Assembly (NCBI GenBank): GCA_016789725.1
Contig: JAEUQN010000002.1
Location: 24,035 to 88,034 of the forward strand
Direction: 5' to 3'
Length of the DNA: 64,000 bases
Source of the DNA: Blastocatellia bacterium
GTDB lineage: Bacteria; Acidobacteriota; Blastocatellia; RBC074
In this document: positions 5,614-50,355 of the stretch, piece after piece
Numbering within the stretch: the first letter of the stretch is position 1
Layout of the letters: each line of letters opens with the position of its first letter
Made by a program: the position numbers and the translations under genes
Notes under the pieces: generated by a model
What the model was told of the DNA's origin: nothing
What the model saw: only the letters and a program-made list of their open reading frames with translations
Databases searched by the model: none

Positions 5614-6515
5614 GTTTCTACGGGTGAGGTTTTGCTTTCTGCTAAAACCAAGCTCGCGGCTTTCACGGGGCGCGCGATTAATACCGGGCACGAAGACTGC
5701 CGTAAAATCGGCTCAATGTGAGAGCTGGATTGCAATTCGCCACCCGTTCCGCTGACGCCCAGACAGATCAGATCAATTTCGTGTTCGTCGGCGTATTCTA
5801 AAATCTCTCGATACGGAACACCTTCACGCACCGTCGCATTGACCTCGCACCAAAGTTGCGCTTCTTCGGGAATGGCATTCTGCAATTCGAGCGCGATGGC
5901 TTCCAATTCACCACTGGAGGACAATCCCGCGTCACCGCTGGTCGGGATTACGTGGAGCAAATGTAGCGCAGCCTGATATTGCTCGGCGAACAGTAGCGCC
6001 AGGCTGAGCGCCAATTCCGAATCGTTCGTAAAATCATATGCCATCAAGATGTTTTTGAGCCGGATTTCTCCCGTATCCGCATTGACCCAATCGTGTTCAT
6101 AGGGATGTGTAATTAGCACTGGACACGGAGCGGAGCGGCTCACCGTTTCGGCAGTTGATCCCAGCAGAGTCGCCGCATAGGTTTGTCGCCGCGAGTGCAT
6201 CACGAGTAGGTCTGCGTGTTGTTCTGCGGCCAGGCGGGGAATGACCTCCGCCGCATCCCCACGCCCGATGATTGGTTCCCAATCCGGCACGCCCGGACGG
6301 CCTGAATCGTCTTGATAGCAATGCTGTTGCACTGCTTCTGTTAACCGAGCGCGCCACTCACCCATCATTTCGTCGGATAGTTCTTCAGCCTCCGCCACGT
6401 GGCACACATACAGTTTGGCTTCGTGATCTTTCGCTAATGCCAGGCCATAGCTCAGCGATTCATCGTGCGATGAATGTAAATCGGTAGGGCAAAAGATTTT
6501 CTCTAAAGTCATCAT
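5592..6515 (-). CDS. tandem-domain universal stress protein (UspA family)
   Basis: Two USP alpha/beta domains (AKLYVCHV ... [27 protein letters not shown]; AALHLLHV ... [20 protein letters not shown]). I placed the start at ATG 6515 (MMTLEKIF) because the longer ORF would run into the upstream gene. Confidence 0.8.
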
Positions 6516-46618: not shown

Positions 46619-48217
46619 GTGATTGTTCCGCTGAATGAATATGACTTTCTGAAACGCGCCGTAACCGTCTACGGCGATTGCGAAGCCGTCGTATGTGGCG
46701 AACATCGGTTCACGTATCGCCAATTCAATGGTCGCGTGAACCAATGGGCGAATTTGATGCGCAACTTCGGCGTCAAAAAAGGCGACCGTGTCGCGGTGCT
46801 TTCGCAAAATTGCCATCGCCTGCTCGAAGCGTTTTTTGGCACGCCGTTGCTTGGCGCAATCCTGATGCCGCTGAATTTTCGCCTGATCCCGGACGACTTC
46901 AATTACATCCTCAATCACGGCGAAGCGAAAGTTGTCATCGTCGAAGAAGGTCTGACGCATTTGATTGACGAGATTCGCGGGCATCTGCCGAGCGTCGAGC
47001 ATTTTCTGATTGCGGGCGATAATATCGCGGACGCACCGAACGGCTGGCAGGACTACGAAAAGATGATGGCGCAGCATTCGACGCACGCGCCAACGCCTGC
47101 CGAAATTGACGAGAACGAAGCTTCGGCGTTGCTCTACACGTCAGGCACAACGGGGCGACCGAAAGGCGTGATACTCACGCACCGTAATTTGTATTTGAAT
47201 GCGATGAATTCGGTGATTGAATTCGGTCTCACGCACGCCGACAACTATTTGCACACGCTGGCGATGTTTCATTGCAACGGTTGGGGCTTGCCGTATGCGG
47301 TCACGGGCGTCGGCGGCAAGCACGTCGTCGTCAAAAAATACGAACCGGGATCGTTCTTTGATTTGGCGTGCAAAGAGCAAATGACCTTCGCCTGTATGCC
47401 GCCGACGATGATCAACCTCGCACTGAATCATCCGACGAGTCACAACTTGCCTGACAATTTCCCACGCAATGCACGTGTAGGTACGGCTGGTTCTGCGCCC
47501 CCGATGGCGTTGATCAAAGGAATGCAGGAACGTTTGGGCTGGCAGGTGATTCAGATTTACGGTTTGACCGAAACCGCGCCGTTCCTGACCGTTTCCAAAG
47601 TCAAACCGCACATGCAGGATTGGCCTGTCGAAGAAAAATATCGGATGCAAACGCGCACGGGCTATCCAATGCTCGGCGTCGAATTGCGCGTCGTAGACGA
47701 ACACAACAACGATGTCCCGAACGATGGGCAATCTGTCGGCGAAGTCATCGCGCGCGGCAACGTCGTGATGGCAGGTTATTGGCGGCAACAGGACGCAACG
47801 GACGCTGTGATTGTAGATGGATGGTTCCACACGGGCGACATGGCAAACCACGATAGCGAAGGCACGATTGAAGTCGTAGACCGCAAGAAAGACCTCATTA
47901 TTTCCGGCGGCGAAAATGTGTCTTCTATTGAGATTGAGGGAATGCTCTACAAACATCCAAGCGTCTTGGAAGCCGCGTGTATTGCTGTCCCGGATGAAAA
48001 ATGGGGCGAAGCGCCGGGCGCGATTGTGGTGCTAAAACCGGGCGAAGCGGCTACGGAAGCAGACCTGATTGAATTCTGTCGCGCGCACATGGCGCATTTC
48101 AAATGTCCGCGTTCGATCTATTTTTCGGAAGCATTGCCGCGCACGGCGACCGGCAAGATTCAAAAAAACGTGTTGCGCGAACAGTTCTGGCAAGGGCGGA
48201 CGAAACGCGTGAATTGA
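46619..48217 (+). CDS. AMP-forming acyl-CoA synthetase (fatty-acid--CoA ligase family)
   Basis: [38 protein letters not shown] and DLIISGGENVSS. GTG start at 46619. Transcribed divergently from the paralog. Confidence 0.92.
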   Translation: MIVPLNEYDFLKRAVTVYGDCEAVVCGEHRFTYRQFNGRVNQWANLMRNFGVKKGDRVAVLSQNCHRLLEAFFGTPLLGAILMPLNFRLIPDDFNYILNHGEAKVVIVEEGLTHLIDEIRGHLPSVEHFLIAGDNIADAPNGWQDYEKMMAQHSTHAPTPAEIDENEASALLYTSGTTGRPKGVILTHRNLYLNAMNSVIEFGLTHADNYLHTLAMFHCNGWGLPYAVTGVGGKHVVVKKYEPGSFFDLACKEQMTFACMPPTMINLALNHPTSHNLPDNFPRNARVGTAGSAPPMALIKGMQERLGWQVIQIYGLTETAPFLTVSKVKPHMQDWPVEEKYRMQTRTGYPMLGVELRVVDEHNNDVPNDGQSVGEVIARGNVVMAGYWRQQDATDAVIVDGWFHTGDMANHDSEGTIEVVDRKKDLIISGGENVSSIEIEGMLYKHPSVLEAACIAVPDEKWGEAPGAIVVLKPGEAATEADLIEFCRAHMAHFKCPRSIYFSEALPRTATGKIQKNVLREQFWQGRTKRVN

Positions 48218-48235
48218 AATATGGATGAAGTACCT

Positions 48236-48295
48236 CAGCCGTCGAACGGCTGGTCTAATGGCCTGCTTTGCAGGAAAGCCCGATGAATCGGGCTG
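48236..48295 (+). repeat. REP-like multi-hairpin unit, copy A
   Basis: CAGCCGTCGAACGGCTGGTCTAATGGCCTGCTTTGCAGGAAAGCCCGATGAATCGGGCTG. Hairpins are CAGCCGT/ACGGCTG, CCTGC/GCAGG and AGCCCG/CGGGCT. Confidence 0.75.
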
Positions 48296-48397
48296 TACCG
48301 ATGACAACATTATTGCGATAAGGCAGGACACGCTATGGTGATAGACAAAGATCACGCCAAGAATTTTTTCAGCTTTTGAGATCAATTGCCCTGTACT

Positions 48398-48452
48398 AAC
48401 CCGATTCATCGGGTTTCCCGTCAGGGCCAATAGGCGAGCCGTTCGACGGCTG
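48398..48452 (-). repeat. REP-like multi-hairpin unit, copy B (inverted)
   Basis: The reverse complement CAGCCGTCGAACGGCTCGCCTATTGGCCCTGACGGGAAACCCGATGAATCGGGTT aligns with copies A and C. Confidence 0.75.
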
Positions 48453-48473
48453 GTAACACAAACGATGAATTAC

Positions 48474-48500
48474 GAAGGGCGTTTCAACGTCCTTCCCCAA
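48474..48500. repeat. inner inverted repeat, left (GAAGGGCGTTTCAACGTCCTTCCCCAA)
   Basis: The reverse complement of 48950-48975 is GGAGGGCGTTTCAACGTCCTTCCCAA, which is near-identical. Each copy is also an imperfect hairpin. Confidence 0.8.
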
Positions 48501-48512
48501 ACCGCTTGAGCA

Positions 48513-48941
48513 ATGCCCCGAAACGTTTATGCGGAAATCAATTTGCACATCACGTGGCATACGAAACAGAGCTTTCCTTCGCTGACAGAGCAAATTGAGA
48601 ATCGCCTTCACCACTATTTGCAGCATCGGGCGTTGGAAACAGCAGGTGTGGTTTTTCACGCCATTGGCGGCACGGAAAATCACGTTCACATCGCTGTCAG
48701 CGTTCCGCCGACCTTGCTCATCAGCGATTGGGTCGGCAAATTAAAAGGCGCGAGTTCGCATTACATTAATCACGAAATTGCGAATCGGAAAGTTTTGGAA
48801 TGGCAAACGGGCTATGGCGTCGTCAGTTTTGGAGCAAAGGATTTGGAATGGGTCGTGAGCTACATTCGCAATCAAAAAGAACATCATCGCAATGGTTCGA
48901 TTTATGACCGGTTGGAACGAATTGCGGTGGACGAATGCTAA
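48513..48941 (+). CDS. IS200/IS605-family Y1 (HUH) transposase, RAYT-like
   Basis: HUH motif NHVHIAVS. Catalytic Tyr context VVSYIRNQKEHH. WQTGYGVVSF. The 142-aa size is typical of this family. Confidence 0.88.
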   Translation: MPRNVYAEINLHITWHTKQSFPSLTEQIENRLHHYLQHRALETAGVVFHAIGGTENHVHIAVSVPPTLLISDWVGKLKGASSHYINHEIANRKVLEWQTGYGVVSFGAKDLEWVVSYIRNQKEHHRNGSIYDRLERIAVDEC

Positions 48942-48949
48942 AGCTGTTG

Positions 48950-48975
48950 TTGGGAAGGACGTTGAAACGCCCTCC
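48950..48975. repeat. inner inverted repeat, right (TTGGGAAGGACGTTGAAACGCCCTCC)
   Basis: Partner of 48474-48500. Begins 9 nt after the transposase stop. Confidence 0.8.
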
Positions 48976-48995
48976 CTGTTTTGTGTTTTGTGTCC

Positions 48996-49052
48996 CAGCC
49001 GTCGAACGGCTGGTCTAATCGCCCTTGCGGGAAAGCCCGATGAATCGGGCTG
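48996..49052 (+). repeat. REP-like multi-hairpin unit, copy C
   Basis: CAGCCGTCGAACGGCTGGTCTAATCGCCCTTGCGGGAAAGCCCGATGAATCGGGCTG. The first 24 nt are identical to copy A. Confidence 0.75.
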
Positions 49053-49074
49053 CTGAGGAAACAAAGGAAGAAAT

Positions 49075-50355
49075 ATGACTATCTTGAAAAAATCCATCAC
49101 CACAGCACTTGCAATCGCCATTGCAATTCTTCTTAACGCTTGTTCTTCGACCGGCACACAAACCGCTTCGACGTCCTCGCCGCAGGACTTCGCCAAGAGG
49201 TTGCAGGAAGACCTCATCAAAGCCAAGCCGGGCAGCGTGATTGAAATTCCAGCGGGCAAATTTCAATTCGATAAAACGCTCTCGCTGAACGTGTCTAAAG
49301 TCACGATTCGCGGCAAGGGCATGAAAGAAACCATTCTCTCGTTTACCGGACAAAAAGCGGGTTCTGCCGGATTGATGGTCAAGGCCGATGATTTTGTGAT
49401 CGAAGATTTGGCGATTGAAGATGCGGCGGGCGATGCGCTGAAAGTTGAAAATAGCAGCAATGTCACGATGCGGCGCGTGCGGGTCGAATGGACGGGCGGC
49501 CCCAAAGAAACCAATGGCCCATACGGTTTGTATCCGGTGACCTGCAAAAATGTGCTGATCGAAGATTGCGTGGCGATTGCGGCGTCAGACGCGGGCATCT
49601 ACGTCGGGCAATCCGACGGCGTGATTATGCGACGCAATCGCGCGGAAAAAAATGTCGCGGGCATCGAAATCGAAAACACCAAAAATGCCGATGTCTATGA
49701 AAACATCGCCACGAACAATACCGGCGGAATTATGGCCTTCAACCTGCCCGATTTGCCGGTGCAGGGCGGTACGAACGTGCGTATCTACAACAATAAAATT
49801 ATGGGCAACAACCTGCCGAATTTTGCGCCAACCAGCCAAATCGTAGCCGGGTTGCCAACCGGAACGGGCGTTCTGGTGATGTCCATCAAAAACGTTGAGG
49901 TTTTCAAAAACGTCATCCAGGATAACAACACGGCGAACATCAATATCTCTACGTTCAGTGGCAAAGAGGGCGAGCTGCCCGACCTCAGCAAATACAATCC
50001 GTTCGTCGCTTCAGTCTATATTCACGACAATGAAATTTCCGGCGGTGGCACGAAACCGGATGTGCGCTTGCCTAAGATTGCGGCGCTCGCCAAAGCAACG
50101 GGCGGCAAGTTCACCGACATTTTGTATGACGGCGTGATTGAGCCGATAGATGTATCCAATTACGGCAAGCCAGCCGAGGGAGCAGACGCGAAAATCTGCA
50201 TTGAAAATAACGGCGCGGCGACGTTTCTGAATTACGATGCGGGCAATGGCTCGAAGAAAATCGTGAAGGATGTGAACGCCTACAAATGCTCGTTGCCTGC
50301 GCTCGCGGCGATCAATTTGCCGAATGCGGGCGGCAAGAGCGGAGGCGGATTGTAA
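49075..50355 (+). CDS. parallel beta-helix repeat lipoprotein
   Basis: Lipobox LLNA|CSS. PbH1-type repeats (NVLIEDCVAIAASDAGIYVGQS, NVAGIEIENTKNADVYENIATNNTGGIMAFN, NVEVFKNVIQDNNTANI). Confidence 0.8.
   Translation: MTILKKSITTALAIAIAILLNACSSTGTQTASTSSPQDFAKRLQEDLIKAKPGSVIEIPAGKFQFDKTLSLNVSKVTIRGKGMKETILSFTGQKAGSAGLMVKADDFVIEDLAIEDAAGDALKVENSSNVTMRRVRVEWTGGPKETNGPYGLYPVTCKNVLIEDCVAIAASDAGIYVGQSDGVIMRRNRAEKNVAGIEIENTKNADVYENIATNNTGGIMAFNLPDLPVQGGTNVRIYNNKIMGNNLPNFAPTSQIVAGLPTGTGVLVMSIKNVEVFKNVIQDNNTANINISTFSGKEGELPDLSKYNPFVASVYIHDNEISGGGTKPDVRLPKIAALAKATGGKFTDILYDGVIEPIDVSNYGKPAEGADAKICIENNGAATFLNYDAGNGSKKIVKDVNAYKCSLPALAAINLPNAGGKSGGGL

What the first reader, a model, noticed from the sequence alone, without database searches (positions are those of the whole stretch)
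48236..49052. RAYT-like Y1 transposase flanked by inverted REP-like triple-hairpin units and a second, inner pair of inverted hairpins
Three ~57-60-nt units share the terminal hairpins CAGCCGT-CGA-ACGGCTG and AGCCCG-ATGAAT-CGGGCT. Copies B (minus) and C (plus) bracket the 142-aa HUH/Tyr transposase in inverted orientation. That is the arrangement described for REP-associated tyrosine transposases. Copy A (plus) forms a BIME-like inverted pair with B about 100 bp away. Inside this bracket, a second pair of ~26-nt inverted repeats (48474-48500 and 48950-48975) hugs the gene, and each repeat is itself hairpin-forming. That pair is more like the subterminal hairpins of IS200. The nested two-tier structure makes the locus ambiguous between a domesticated RAYT and an IS200-like element that landed in a REP cluster.
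Basis: partly seen in the sequence, partly recalled or inferred. Interest (0 to 1): 0.6.

Follow-up and report, generated by a model that had tools for sequence, protein, structure and literature searches.

The report
IS200-like transposase inside hairpin-repeat arms
A single-copy gene for a small DNA-cutting enzyme sits exactly between two mirror-image arms of about 115 bases, each made of three DNA hairpins; the same arms without the gene are scattered through this genome and related ones (over 100 copies in some), so this is a REP/RAYT-like repeat system built on a transposase branch that the literature lists as having no such repeats.

Summary

The two "tiers" are one thing. Each side of the gene is a single inverted arm of about 115 nt: a 10-mer like GGCTWWAGCC, an inner hairpin, hp1, a CTA tag, and hp3.

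- **Conservation:** This plan recurs around orthologues in Acidobacteriota and Planctomycetota. The stems show compensatory changes.
- **Gene-less copies:** Arms without the gene occur here at two full loci plus partial ones. Genomes with one or two gene copies carry from 3 to at least 117 arms.
- **Protein family:** The protein is not a canonical RAYT. It carries the YIRNQKEHH signature of TnpA-Y1 subclass 1.2, on the IS200 side. Its predicted fold is closest to IS608 and ISDra2 TnpA.
- **Generality:** 58 of 85 homologous loci have inverted flanks, against 0 of 85 shuffled controls. The literature lists this subclass as having no REP.

My best reading is a REPtron-like system, not an IS200 that landed in a REP cluster.

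Two points remain unexplained. Strong arms persist in congeners that lack the gene. One arm subfamily has GTAAC…GTTAC ends and 8-bp target duplications, which classical Y1 transposition does not produce.

The parts
48236..48295 (+). Unit A: a solo outer unit with hp1 at 48236-48252, hp2 at 48262-48274 and hp3 at 48277-48294. It has no inner hairpin. It forms a tail-to-tail inverted pair with the outer part of the left arm.
   Evidence: D3, I3. Folds at -19.8 kcal/mol, z = -6.16. nhmmer finds a partial arm hit.
48296..48397 (.). Spacer of about 103 nt between unit A and the left arm. It is unique in the genome.
   Evidence: blastn finds only a self-hit.
48398..48512 (-). On the + strand it reads hp3' at 48398-48415, a TAG tag, hp1' at 48436-48453, the inner hairpin at 48474-48495, and a degenerate 10-mer CGCTTGAGCA at 48503-48512 that abuts the ATG.
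   Evidence: R1 gives 92.7 bits, but this arm is part of the model. nhmmer gives 8e-21.
48513..48941 (+). tnpA-like gene of 142 aa. The HUH motif is H57-V-H59, the W97-Q98 motif is present, the catalytic Tyr is Y117, and the Y motif reads YIRNQKEHH. It is single-copy in the assembly.
   Evidence: AF2 pLDDT is 90. The best structural match is IS608 TnpA 2vjv, E = 9e-9.
48936..49052 (+). It holds the 10-mer TGCTAAAGCT at 48936-48945, whose centre is the stop codon TAA. Then come the inner hairpin at 48952-48976, hp1 at 48995-49013, the CTA tag, hp2 at 49022-49031 and hp3 at 49034-49051.
   Evidence: Folds with z = -4.96 and -5.97. R1 gives 92.4 bits, but this arm is part of the model.
46619..48217 (+). 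Upstream neighbour, an AMP-binding acyl-CoA synthetase. This is context only and not part of the element.
   Evidence: Pfam AMP-binding E = 3e-81. Synteny with the downstream gene is conserved in 6 congeners.
49075..50355 (+). Downstream neighbour, a beta-helix lipoprotein. This is context only.
   Evidence: Pfam Beta_helix E = 4e-18. Orthologues at 83-87% identity are found in 8 congeners, and the adjacency to the upstream gene is read in 6 of them.

Best explanation
The locus is a REPtron-like unit built on the IS200 side of the Y1 HUH family. It holds one intact tnpA-like gene of TnpA-Y1 subclass 1.2 type at the exact centre of a long palindromic element.

**Arm anatomy.** Each arm is about 115 nt. 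Moving outward from the gene it holds:
- a 10-mer like GGCTWWAGCC, which abuts the ATG on the left and supplies the stop codon on the right;
- an inner hairpin with a 7-10 bp stem and a TGAA-type loop;
- a spacer of about 25 nt;
- hp1, with an 8-bp stem, followed by an invariant CTA;
- a small variable hairpin;
- hp3.

Gene-less versions are dispersed in intergenic DNA of this and related genomes. They are either two arms joined at the 10-mer or single arms.

**Inferred mechanism (not shown).** By analogy with IS608/ISDra2 TnpA and E. coli TnpA-REP, the enzyme binds these hairpins as single-stranded DNA. It probably uses the strand that reads toward the gene, where the inner stem closes with a G·T pair and hp1 is preceded by xTAG. 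It then cuts and rejoins nearby, and so acts in trans on the gene-less arms, as RAYTs are thought to act on REPs and REPINs.

**What is shown.** The anatomy, its conservation, stem covariation, copy numbers, insertion polymorphism, and the protein's family and fold.
For: **Protein**
- Pfam Y1_Tnp scores 80.9 bits and NCBIfam transpos_IS200 scores 73.3 bits against a cut-off of 55.
- H57, H59, W97, Q98 and Q121 are invariant, and Y117 is conserved in at least 90% of 61 homologues.
- The AF2 model has pLDDT 90. Its closest structures are IS608 and ISDra2 TnpA at E about 1e-8; RAYT 4ER8 ranks 30th.
- The Y motif YIRNQKEHH, the WQ motif and the 142-aa length fit subclass 1.2 in Table 1 of PMC6006769.

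**Single, non-duplicating gene**
- There is one copy here, plus three paralogues at 31-34% identity.
- Seven other genomes carry 1-2 copies. Where there are two, they are only 86% or 66% identical at the nucleotide level.

**Arms**
- The same plan surrounds orthologues in Pyrinomonadaceae, Bryobacterales and Planctomycetaceae.
- Stem covariation beats all 500 shuffles.

**Dispersal**
- R1 matches per genome are: G000 15, G011 25, G046 31, G042 57, G045 at least 89, G043 at least 117.
- In G045 the arms form gene-less pairs with the same alpha/beta asymmetry as the gene-bearing copy. In G043 they are singlets.
- G000 has gene-less pairs at C3:7419-7642 and C44:31679-31904.

**Mobility**
- Filled and empty sites differ between congeners, for example G011:C90 against G000 C55.
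- The G045 copies have no target duplication, as expected for HUH transposition.

**Generality**
- 58 of 85 homologous loci have inverted flanks of at least 30 bits, against 0 of 85 shuffled controls.
- Paralogues C95 and C37 show the same nested plan.
Against: - No biochemical or read-level evidence shows that this protein touches these arms.
- Strong arms at up to 94 bits are frequent in relatives with no close orthologue: G002 has 22, G025 has 25 and G014 has 19. None of them lies next to a Y1 gene.
- The G002 copies are old, at 73-86% identity, yet keep their hairpins at 93% against 62% in the spacers. That conservation may reflect a host-level role and not transposase recognition.
- The G000/G002/G011 gene-less subfamily has 9-nt GTAAC…GTTAC termini and 8-bp direct repeats. 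Classical Y1 transposition does not make these.
- Copy number in this genome is low: 6 full arms, one solo outer unit (A) and 7-8 partial arms, in a fragmented assembly that is 89% complete.
- The gene's closest relatives lie in another phylum (72% identity) and most congeners lack it. It is therefore not a vertically inherited 'domesticated' gene in the strict RAYT sense.
Confidence: 0.6

Rival explanations
1. This is an autonomous insertion sequence of the IS200/IS605 family. Gene plus arms move as one unit, and the gene-less copies are its MITE-like (PATE-like) deletion derivatives. It would then be a selfish element that spreads horizontally and not a RAYT-like resident.
For: - The clade mixes Acidobacteriota and Planctomycetota with 100/99 support.
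- Only 1 of 13 congeners has an orthologue. That orthologue is 69% identical, while neighbouring proteins are 82-94% identical, and it sits at a different site.
- Pseudogenised copies exist at L045 and L047.
- NCBIfam places the protein in its IS200/IS605 equivalog.
- The gene-less copies look like exact ORF deletions between the two 10-mers.
Against: - No identical or near-identical gene copies occur in any of 8 genomes.
- The ends are long inverted arms, unlike the same-strand subterminal hairpins of IS200/IS605. This contrast rests on established knowledge and on PMC6006769.
- There are tens to more than 100 arms per gene.
- PMC6006769 describes subclass 1.2 as lacking IS properties.
Confidence: 0.2
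2. The arms are miniature elements or structural repeats that something other than this protein moves or maintains. Candidates are a DDE-type transposase acting on the GTAAC…GTTAC ends, or host selection for terminator or mRNA-stabilising hairpins. The Y1 gene would then be a passenger in one of them, or would have another role.
For: - 8-bp direct repeats abut the termini. They match at a mean of 6.27 of 8 positions against 2.99 of 8 in mismatched pairs, and 0 of 20000 permutations reach this.
- Three filled/empty comparisons show one copy of the repeat at the empty site.
- Arms are abundant in G002, G014 and G025, which lack the gene.
- Hairpins are conserved at 93% against 62% for spacers in old copies within a gene-less genome.
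Against: - In the 13 clade loci whose arms were extracted and aligned, the gene sits between recognisable arms at unrelated sites in most cases. Exceptions are L043, and the left flanks of L032 and L003. L034, L041 and L044 were not extracted for that alignment.
- Flanking arms match the dispersed arms of the same genome.
- The TSD and terminus signature is confined to one subfamily. It is absent in G045 and G014.
- No IS66-type DDE gene is found in G002 or G011, and no IS with such ends is found in G000.
Confidence: 0.15
3. This is the reader's second option: an ordinary IS200 element, bounded by the inner hairpins, that landed by chance inside a pre-existing REP/BIME cluster formed by the outer units.
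For: The inner and outer repeats differ in sequence. Unit A shows that outer units can occur without an inner hairpin.
Against: - The same inner-plus-outer order and spacing recur in orthologues at unrelated loci in several phyla.
- The same order and spacing recur in gene-less copies.
- Paralogues show the same plan built from different sequences.
Confidence: 0.02

Closest known systems
TnpA-Y1 subclass 1.2 (Quentin, Siguier, Chandler, Fichant 2018, PMC6006769). [quoted passage not shown]
   Same: - The Y motif is Y---Q--HH (YIRNQKEHH here, YIKNQKEHH in the paper).
- The WQ motif is present and the protein is a core-only protein of about 145 aa.
- Each genome carries a few divergent copies at about 30-36% identity, with no duplicates.
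- The group is closer to IS200 than to RAYT.
- Bertels' Group 3 is flanked by abundant 16-mers.
   Different: - The paper lists subclass 1.2 as 'REP: no' and as mostly Cyanobacteria and Bacteroidetes. Here the genes lie in Acidobacteriota and Planctomycetota and are flanked by long multi-hairpin inverted arms that are dispersed repeats.
- HuH reads NHVH, not DH[IV]H.
- The window clade has a short tail (HHxxGxxxERLERI), unlike the SFQEEY…GVEYDERYLW tail of its paralogues.
REPtron and REPIN-RAYT systems: E. coli TnpA-REP/RayT (PDB 4ER8) and Pseudomonas RAYTs (Bertels & Rainey 2011, PMC3116915; PMC3479197; PMC8266576).
   Same: - A single-copy Y1 gene sits between inverted hairpin repeats.
- The same repeats are dispersed in extragenic DNA as inverted doublets or singlets.
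- Each paralogue has its own repeat family.
   Different: - The protein is not class 2. It has no Y---NP motif. BLASTP against RayT gives E = 0.57, and 4ER8 is not hit by sequence.
- The repeat unit is a three-hairpin arm of about 100 nt, not one 20-40 nt GT[AG]G-tagged palindrome.
- The gene's start and stop are embedded in the arms.
- Inheritance is patchy and crosses phyla.
IS200/IS605 family TnpA (IS608, ISDra2) and their non-autonomous derivatives.
   Same: - These are the best sequence and fold matches.
- The HUH and Tyr catalytic set is the same.
- Hairpin-bearing ends are present.
- Gene-less derivatives exist.
   Different: - The ends are inverted repeats of about 115 nt, not short same-strand subterminal hairpins.
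- There are no multiple identical copies and no tnpB.
- The ratio of gene-less to gene-bearing copies is far higher.
TIRtron/TIRYT (Di Nocera, De Gregorio, Rocco 2013, PMC3733652).
   Same: [quoted passage not shown]
- Moderately abundant repeat families are organised as singlets, dimers or clusters.
- Examples include Acidobacteria.
   Different: Per PMC6006769, 20 of 26 TIRYTs belong to subclass 2.1 and carry C-terminal HTH domains, and many share GGGGWSAS TIR motifs. The present protein is class 1 and core-only, and its arms have neither feature.

Membership tests
Y1 HUH transposase superfamily (Pfam PF01797 Y1_Tnp) | Profile match above the curated cut-off, with the HUH motif and the catalytic Tyr. 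| tested here: met
   80.9 bits against a cut-off of 23. H57-V-H59 and Y117 are conserved. Fold matches IS608 TnpA at TM 0.67-0.76.
TnpA-Y1 subclass 1.2 (PMC6006769) | Y motif Y---Q--HH (YIKNQKEHH). | tested here: met
   The motif is YIRNQKEHH at residues 117-125. Q121 and H125 are invariant in 61 homologues.
TnpA-Y1 subclass 1.2 (PMC6006769) | WQ motif, a length of about 148 aa with no extra domains, and HuH reading DH[IV]H. | tested here: inconclusive
   W97-Q98 is present and the length is 142 aa. However, HuH reads N-H-V-H, not D-H-[IV]-H.
TnpA-Y1 subclass 1.2 (PMC6006769) | Low copy number per genome, with copies that are divergent (about 36% identity) and not identical. | tested here: met
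   G000 has 4 Y1 genes at 31-34% identity to the window's gene. Relatives carry 1-11 each.
TnpA-Y1 subclass 1.2 (PMC6006769) | The subclass-specific conserved C-terminal domain (a 30-position HMM in the paper). | not testable with these tools
   The authors' HMM is not available. The window clade's tail differs from that of its paralogues.
IS200/IS605 insertion sequences (subclass 1.1) | Several near-identical copies per genome. | tested here: not met
   One copy here. Seven other genomes carry 1-2 copies each, at 66-86% nucleotide identity where there are two.
IS200/IS605 insertion sequences (subclass 1.1) | Short subterminal hairpins at both ends on the same strand, no terminal inverted repeats, and Y motif Y[IV]ENQ without HH. 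| tested here: not met
   The flanks are inverted arms of about 115 nt. The Y motif carries the HH extension. The NCBIfam IS200 equivalog is nevertheless passed at 73.3 bits against 55.
Canonical RAYT / TnpA-REP (class 2) | Y motif Y---NP and detectable similarity to RAYTs. | tested here: not met
   The motif is YIRNQ. BLASTP against E. coli RayT gives E = 0.57. 4ER8 is absent from sequence searches at E <= 1 and ranks 30th by fold.
Canonical RAYT / TnpA-REP (class 2) | Flanking REPs with a 5' GT[AG]G tetranucleotide at the hairpin foot. | tested here: not met
   hp1 is followed by an invariant CTA. On the other strand this reads xTAG, 1-2 nt from the foot, with x = T, C or A and not G.
REPtron / REPIN-RAYT way of life (a functional analogy, not a protein family) | A single-copy gene between inverted repeats that are dispersed gene-less in the same genome. 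| tested here: met
REPtron / REPIN-RAYT way of life (a functional analogy, not a protein family) | Predominantly vertical inheritance at a fixed locus. | tested here: not met
   Absent from 11 of 13 congeners. The G011 copy lies at another site and is only 69% identical. The clade crosses phyla.

The most novel reading that the evidence does not exclude
Subclass-1.2 Y1 enzymes may be a second lineage of repeat-mobilising HUH transposases on the IS200 side, caught in an intermediate state between an IS and a RAYT/REPIN system, with the gene still sitting at the exact centre of its own REPIN-like palindrome.

The boldest form concerns the subfamily with GTAAC…GTTAC ends and 8-bp target duplications. 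It would be moved as double-stranded DNA by staggered cuts made by the HUH enzyme itself. That would be a TIR/TSD mode of transposition unknown for Y1 transposases.
Probability: 0.08. Interest if true: 0.85.

Novelty: new variant of a known kind. Interest (0 to 1): 0.55.

Why it matters
**Current state of the literature.** REP/REPIN-RAYT systems are the textbook case of a transposase kept by bacteria together with a population of non-autonomous repeats. All characterised examples use class-2 RAYTs. The one systematic survey of the Y1 family lists subclass 1.2 as having no associated repeats.

**What this locus adds.**
- The IS200-side subclass is routinely embedded in long multi-hairpin inverted arms that are dispersed repeats. 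This holds for 58 of 85 homologous loci.
- The gene sits exactly where the two arms of the gene-less element meet. That is the configuration proposed for the origin of REPINs from IS200-like ends.
- It gives a concrete set of hairpins and a 10-mer for testing how such enzymes recognise and cut DNA.

**Open puzzle.** An arm subfamily with target-site duplications coexists with arms in genomes that lack the gene. It is therefore unclear who moves or maintains these repeats.

**Practical use.** The arms are a recognisable new repeat class for annotating Acidobacteriota and Planctomycetota genomes. They are also a likely cause of assembly breaks.

Tried and rejected
1. **Clean empty site for the window's own locus.** The synthetase-lipoprotein adjacency is conserved in 6 congeners. 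However, each spacer (105-190 nt) holds a different long inverted repeat, so no empty site exists.
2. **TSD around the window's element.** None is found next to B…C. An 8-mer GAAATATG lies on both sides of A…C, but its right copy lies beyond (downstream of) the RBS region (…AAAGGAA) that is conserved in relatives and overlaps the lipoprotein gene's ATG, so it does not abut the insert. I treat it as chance.
3. **IS66-type DDE transposase as mover of the GTAAC-ended subfamily.** From memory, IS66 has GTAA ends and an 8-bp TSD. PF03050 is absent from G002 and G011 and present once in G000. No IS in G000 carries such ends.
4. **A multi-copy IS end containing GTAATTAAC.** It really starts at TAGAGCCT, so the resemblance to the arm termini is coincidental.
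5. **TSDs in the G045 subfamily.** None: best repeats average 5.09 against 5.33 in controls.
6. **Recent gene duplication.** The two copies in G042 are 86% identical at the nucleotide level and those in G046 are 66%.
7. **Known RNA family.** Rfam returns nothing relevant.
9. **C44 site in congeners.** The element is absent there, but the right flank is not conserved, so this is not a clean filled/empty pair.
Full report
**1. The observation**

- Unit A lies at 48236-48295 (+), unit B at about 48398-48455 (-) and unit C at 48995-49052 (+). All three share the hairpins CAGCCGT-CGA-ACGGCTG and AGCCCGA-TGAA-TCGGGCT.
- B and C are inverted around the ORF 48513-48941.
- A and B are inverted and 103 nt apart.
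- The inner pair is real and longer than reported: 42 nt at 81% (48456-48497 against 48952-48993). It adjoins the outer inverted repeat (43 nt, 84%).
- Each flank is therefore one continuous arm of about 115 nt.
- As single-stranded DNA both arms fold into the predicted hairpins. z-scores are -5 to -6 for the right arm and for unit A, and -1.7 to -2.6 for the left arm.
- The strand that reads toward the gene closes the inner stem completely through a G·T pair.

The neighbours are an AMP-binding acyl-CoA synthetase and a beta-helix lipoprotein. There is no tnpB.

**2. The protein**

- *Family matches.* The 142-aa product matches Pfam Y1_Tnp (E = 1.1e-22). It passes NCBIfam's IS200/IS605 equivalog at 73.3 bits against a cut-off of 55.
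- *Solved structures.* By sequence it finds only IS200/IS605 TnpA entries. A single-sequence search gives 2a6m at 1.6e-6. A 61-sequence profile gives ISDra2 at 4.6e-19 and IS608 at 2.7e-18. It never finds E. coli RAYT 4ER8.
- *Direct comparison.* BLASTP against RayT gives E = 0.57.
- *Fold.* An AlphaFold model (pLDDT 90) is closest to IS608 and ISDra2 TnpA (E about 1e-8). 4ER8 ranks 30th.
- *Conserved residues.* H57, H59, K78, W97, Q98, Q121 and H125 are invariant and Y117 is nearly so.
- *Subclass.* The Y motif reads YIRNQKEHH. In the classification of Quentin et al. 2018 this Y---Q--HH signature defines subclass 1.2, together with WQ, a length of about 148 aa and a few divergent copies per genome. 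That subclass is close to IS200 but 'does not share IS properties' and is listed with 'REP: no'. Class-2 RAYTs have Y---NP.
- *Possible overlap.* Bertels et al. 2017 describe a 'RAYT-like IS200 Group 3' with no duplicates, none on plasmids, and abundant flanking 16-mers. This is plausibly the same group. I could not test the equivalence.
- *Differences from the published consensus.* HuH reads NHVH, not DH[IV]H. The window clade has a short C-terminal tail, unlike its paralogues.

**3. Copy number here**

- The assembly is 7.77 Mb in 636 contigs and 89% complete.
- The gene is single-copy, with three paralogues at 31-34% identity.
- hp1 occurs at 8 sites and the inner hairpin at 4 sites.
- A profile of the whole arm finds 6 full arms: the gene locus, C44:31679-31904 and C3:7419-7642. 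It also finds unit A and partial arms at C93, C233, C264, C32 and C44:36770.
- The two gene-less loci each consist of a left and a right arm joined at one palindromic 10-mer, GGCTTAAGCC or GGCTGAAGCC. They are the gene-bearing structure with the ORF exactly absent.

**4. The arm is a conserved unit**

- *Orthologues.* A scan of genome contigs found orthologues at 54-72% identity in Pyrinomonadaceae, Bryobacterales, other Acidobacteriota, Planctomycetaceae and Pirellulaceae. They form a 17-member clade with 100/99 support.
- *Shared plan.* Most orthologue flanks show the same plan. GGCTTTAGCC lies just before the ATG. GGC-TRA-AGCC supplies the stop codon. Then come the inner hairpin, a spacer of about 25 nt, hp1, CTA, a variable small hairpin, and hp3. 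Exceptions were L043, L034, L044, and the left flanks of L032 and L003.
- *Modules vary independently.* G011 keeps the window's outer hairpins but has a different inner stem. G034 keeps the inner hairpin but has a different hp1.
- *Covariation.* Across 17 arms, 94.1% of cells pair. 10 of 22 pairs change on both sides, in 44 cells. No shuffle out of 500 reaches this, and slid registers pair at 20-40%.
- *Paralogues.* C95 and C37 in this genome have the same nested plan built from unrelated sequences. C95 even has an extra upstream copy like unit A.
- *Family-wide pattern.* Of 85 homologous loci, nearly all with Y---Q--HH, 58 have a flank-to-flank inverted repeat of at least 30 bits. None of 85 shuffled controls does.

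**5. Dispersal elsewhere**

A covariance model of the arm (R1) was run on several genomes.

| Genome | Arms | Clade genes |
|---|---|---|
| G000 | 15 | 1 |
| G011 | 25 | 1 |
| G041 | 3 | 1 |
| G044 | 12 | 1 |
| G046 | 31 | 2 |
| G042 | 57 | 2 |
| G045 | at least 89 | 1 |
| G043 | at least 117 | 1 |

- Where there are two genes, they are 86% or 66% identical at the nucleotide level, so they are not recent duplicates.
- In G045 the arms form gene-less pairs of about 245 nt, with the same alpha/beta arm asymmetry as the gene-bearing copy.
- In G043, 11 of 11 sampled arms are singlets that still carry the inner hairpin, hp1 and hp3.
- The gene-flanking arms were in the model. The dispersed arms were not.

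**6. Mobility**

- Gene-less pairs are present or absent at orthologous sites of congeners.
- The cleanest case is G011:C90. About 245 nt are inserted between a stop codon and the next ATG, where G000 (C55) has a 9-nt spacer.
- The C44 element is absent at the same gene end in G002, G004 and G006.
- The window's own spacer is occupied by a different long inverted repeat in each of six congeners. This intergenic site therefore turns over repeat elements.

**7. What does not fit**

- *Arms without the gene.* High-scoring arms are frequent in relatives with no close orthologue: G002 has 22, G025 has 25 and G014 has 19. None lies beside a Y1 gene.
- *Old copies with intact hairpins.* The G002 copies are 73-86% identical. 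Their hairpins and the 10-mer are 93% identical against 62% for the spacers. Constraint therefore persists without the gene.
- *TSD-like repeats in one subfamily.* The G000/G002/G011 subfamily carries 9-nt outer termini (GTAAYTAGC…GCTAGTTAC) followed by 8-bp direct repeats.
  - Three pairs match at 8 of 8 positions. The mean is 6.27 of 8, against 2.99 of 8 for mismatched pairs, and 0 of 20000 permutations reach it.
  - I chose the register by eye in three cases.
  - The empty sites hold one copy of the repeat.
  - Classical Y1 'peel and paste' transposition makes no duplication. This rests on established knowledge of IS200/IS605.
- *Signature is confined.* It is absent in G045 and G014, and G025 arms sit in a longer repeat. 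It tracks the GTAAC ends, not the presence of the gene.
- *Tentative explanation.* The simplest explanation is that this subfamily was additionally mobilised by a TSD-forming transposase. I found no candidate: IS66-type DDE is absent from G002 and G011, and no IS with such ends exists in G000.

**8. Mechanism**

*Shown:*
- an intact HUH/Tyr enzyme of IS200-like fold;
- a conserved, covarying, strand-asymmetric three-hairpin arm on both sides in inverted orientation;
- gene-less copies in numbers far above gene copies;
- insertion polymorphism.

*Inferred by analogy with IS608/ISDra2 TnpA and E. coli TnpA-REP:*
- The enzyme recognises one or more of the hairpins as ssDNA on the strand reading toward the gene. 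On that strand the inner stem has a G·T pair and hp1 is preceded by xTAG, which recalls the GT[AG]G tag of canonical REPs.
- It cuts and rejoins nearby. The 10-mer at the arm's inner end is a candidate site. It is identical on one strand at both arms, delimits the ORF exactly, and is the junction in gene-less copies.
- It acts in trans on gene-less arms.

I put 0.6 on this REPtron-like reading, 0.2 on an autonomous IS with MITE derivatives, 0.15 on arms moved or maintained by something else, and 0.02 on the chance-landing reading.

**9. Comparison and novelty**

- The way of life matches REPtron/REPIN-RAYT systems. The protein fails the class-2 RAYT tests and the IS200/IS605 insertion-sequence tests, and fits subclass 1.2.
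- TIRtrons (Di Nocera 2013) are conceptually close but involve subclass 2.1 proteins.
- I found no paper that describes multi-hairpin arms or dispersed repeats for subclass 1.2.
That is agreement, not independent proof.
- I rate the finding a new variant of a known kind, of moderate interest.

Noticed in passing
G000 genome, e.g. C4:11455, C27:1889 and 1927, C28:13944 and 13983 (outside the window): A canonical GTAG/GTAA-tagged 'double-foot' REP family, GTAGCGCGATTTGGCAAATCGCGCTAC, occurs at least 44 times on 26 contigs, often in nearby pairs. A second GTAG-tagged family has the core CGCAAACTGTCAGTTTGCG. This genome therefore also carries classical REPs, at higher copy number than the arms studied here.
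   Followed up: partly
G000 contig ends, e.g. C7:24398, C95:15097, C131:11038, C318:9: An identical sequence, TAGAGCCTGTAATTAACTTTTAGTTGAGTAACTCAACTAGC…, ends 13 contigs. It is probably the terminus of a multi-copy insertion sequence that breaks the assembly.
   Followed up: partly
Orthologous spacer between the acyl-CoA synthetase and the lipoprotein gene in G002, G003, G004, G007, G008 and G010 (loci L014-L020); window 48218-49074: Each congener fills this 105-190 nt spacer with a different long perfect or near-perfect inverted repeat. Examples are GGTACGATAGGCGTCCCCGCCTGTCG…, TTTTCACCGCAGAGGCACAGAGG… and GGGTACGCAGGCATCCTGCCTGCG…. The site is a hotspot for several repeat families.
   Followed up: partly
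G000 C95:3076-4162, C37:15758-16847, C521:33892-34987: The three other Y1 paralogues each have their own flanking hairpin sets. They carry the long tail SFQEEY…GVEYDERYLW. C95 and C37 have inner plus outer inverted hairpins. C521 has direct flanking units plus a third inverted one.
   Followed up: partly
L037 / L122 (G045:C182:1900-2900): Beyond the right arm of the gene-bearing copy lie further tandem arm copies. Each begins with the last 20 nt or so of the ORF (…GGTTTAGTATCGATGGCTAAAGCC). The repeated unit therefore extends into the coding sequence.
   Followed up: no
L045 (Bryobacterales MAG) and L047 (Pyrinomonadaceae MAG): These orthologues are broken by a frameshift or stop, while their arms are still recognisable. 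The gene therefore decays in some lineages.
   Followed up: no
G025 loci L147-L155: Here the arms are embedded in a longer repeated unit, with conserved sequence of at least 45 nt outside hp3 on both sides.
   Followed up: no
G009:C82:5532-5631 next to the Y1 gene at 5668-6075 (L007): A sister-clade Y1 gene, 33% identical to the window's, is flanked by an arm that scores weakly on R1 (52.8 bits). That genome holds 59 such weak arms, so paralogous genes appear to have homologous arms.
   Followed up: no
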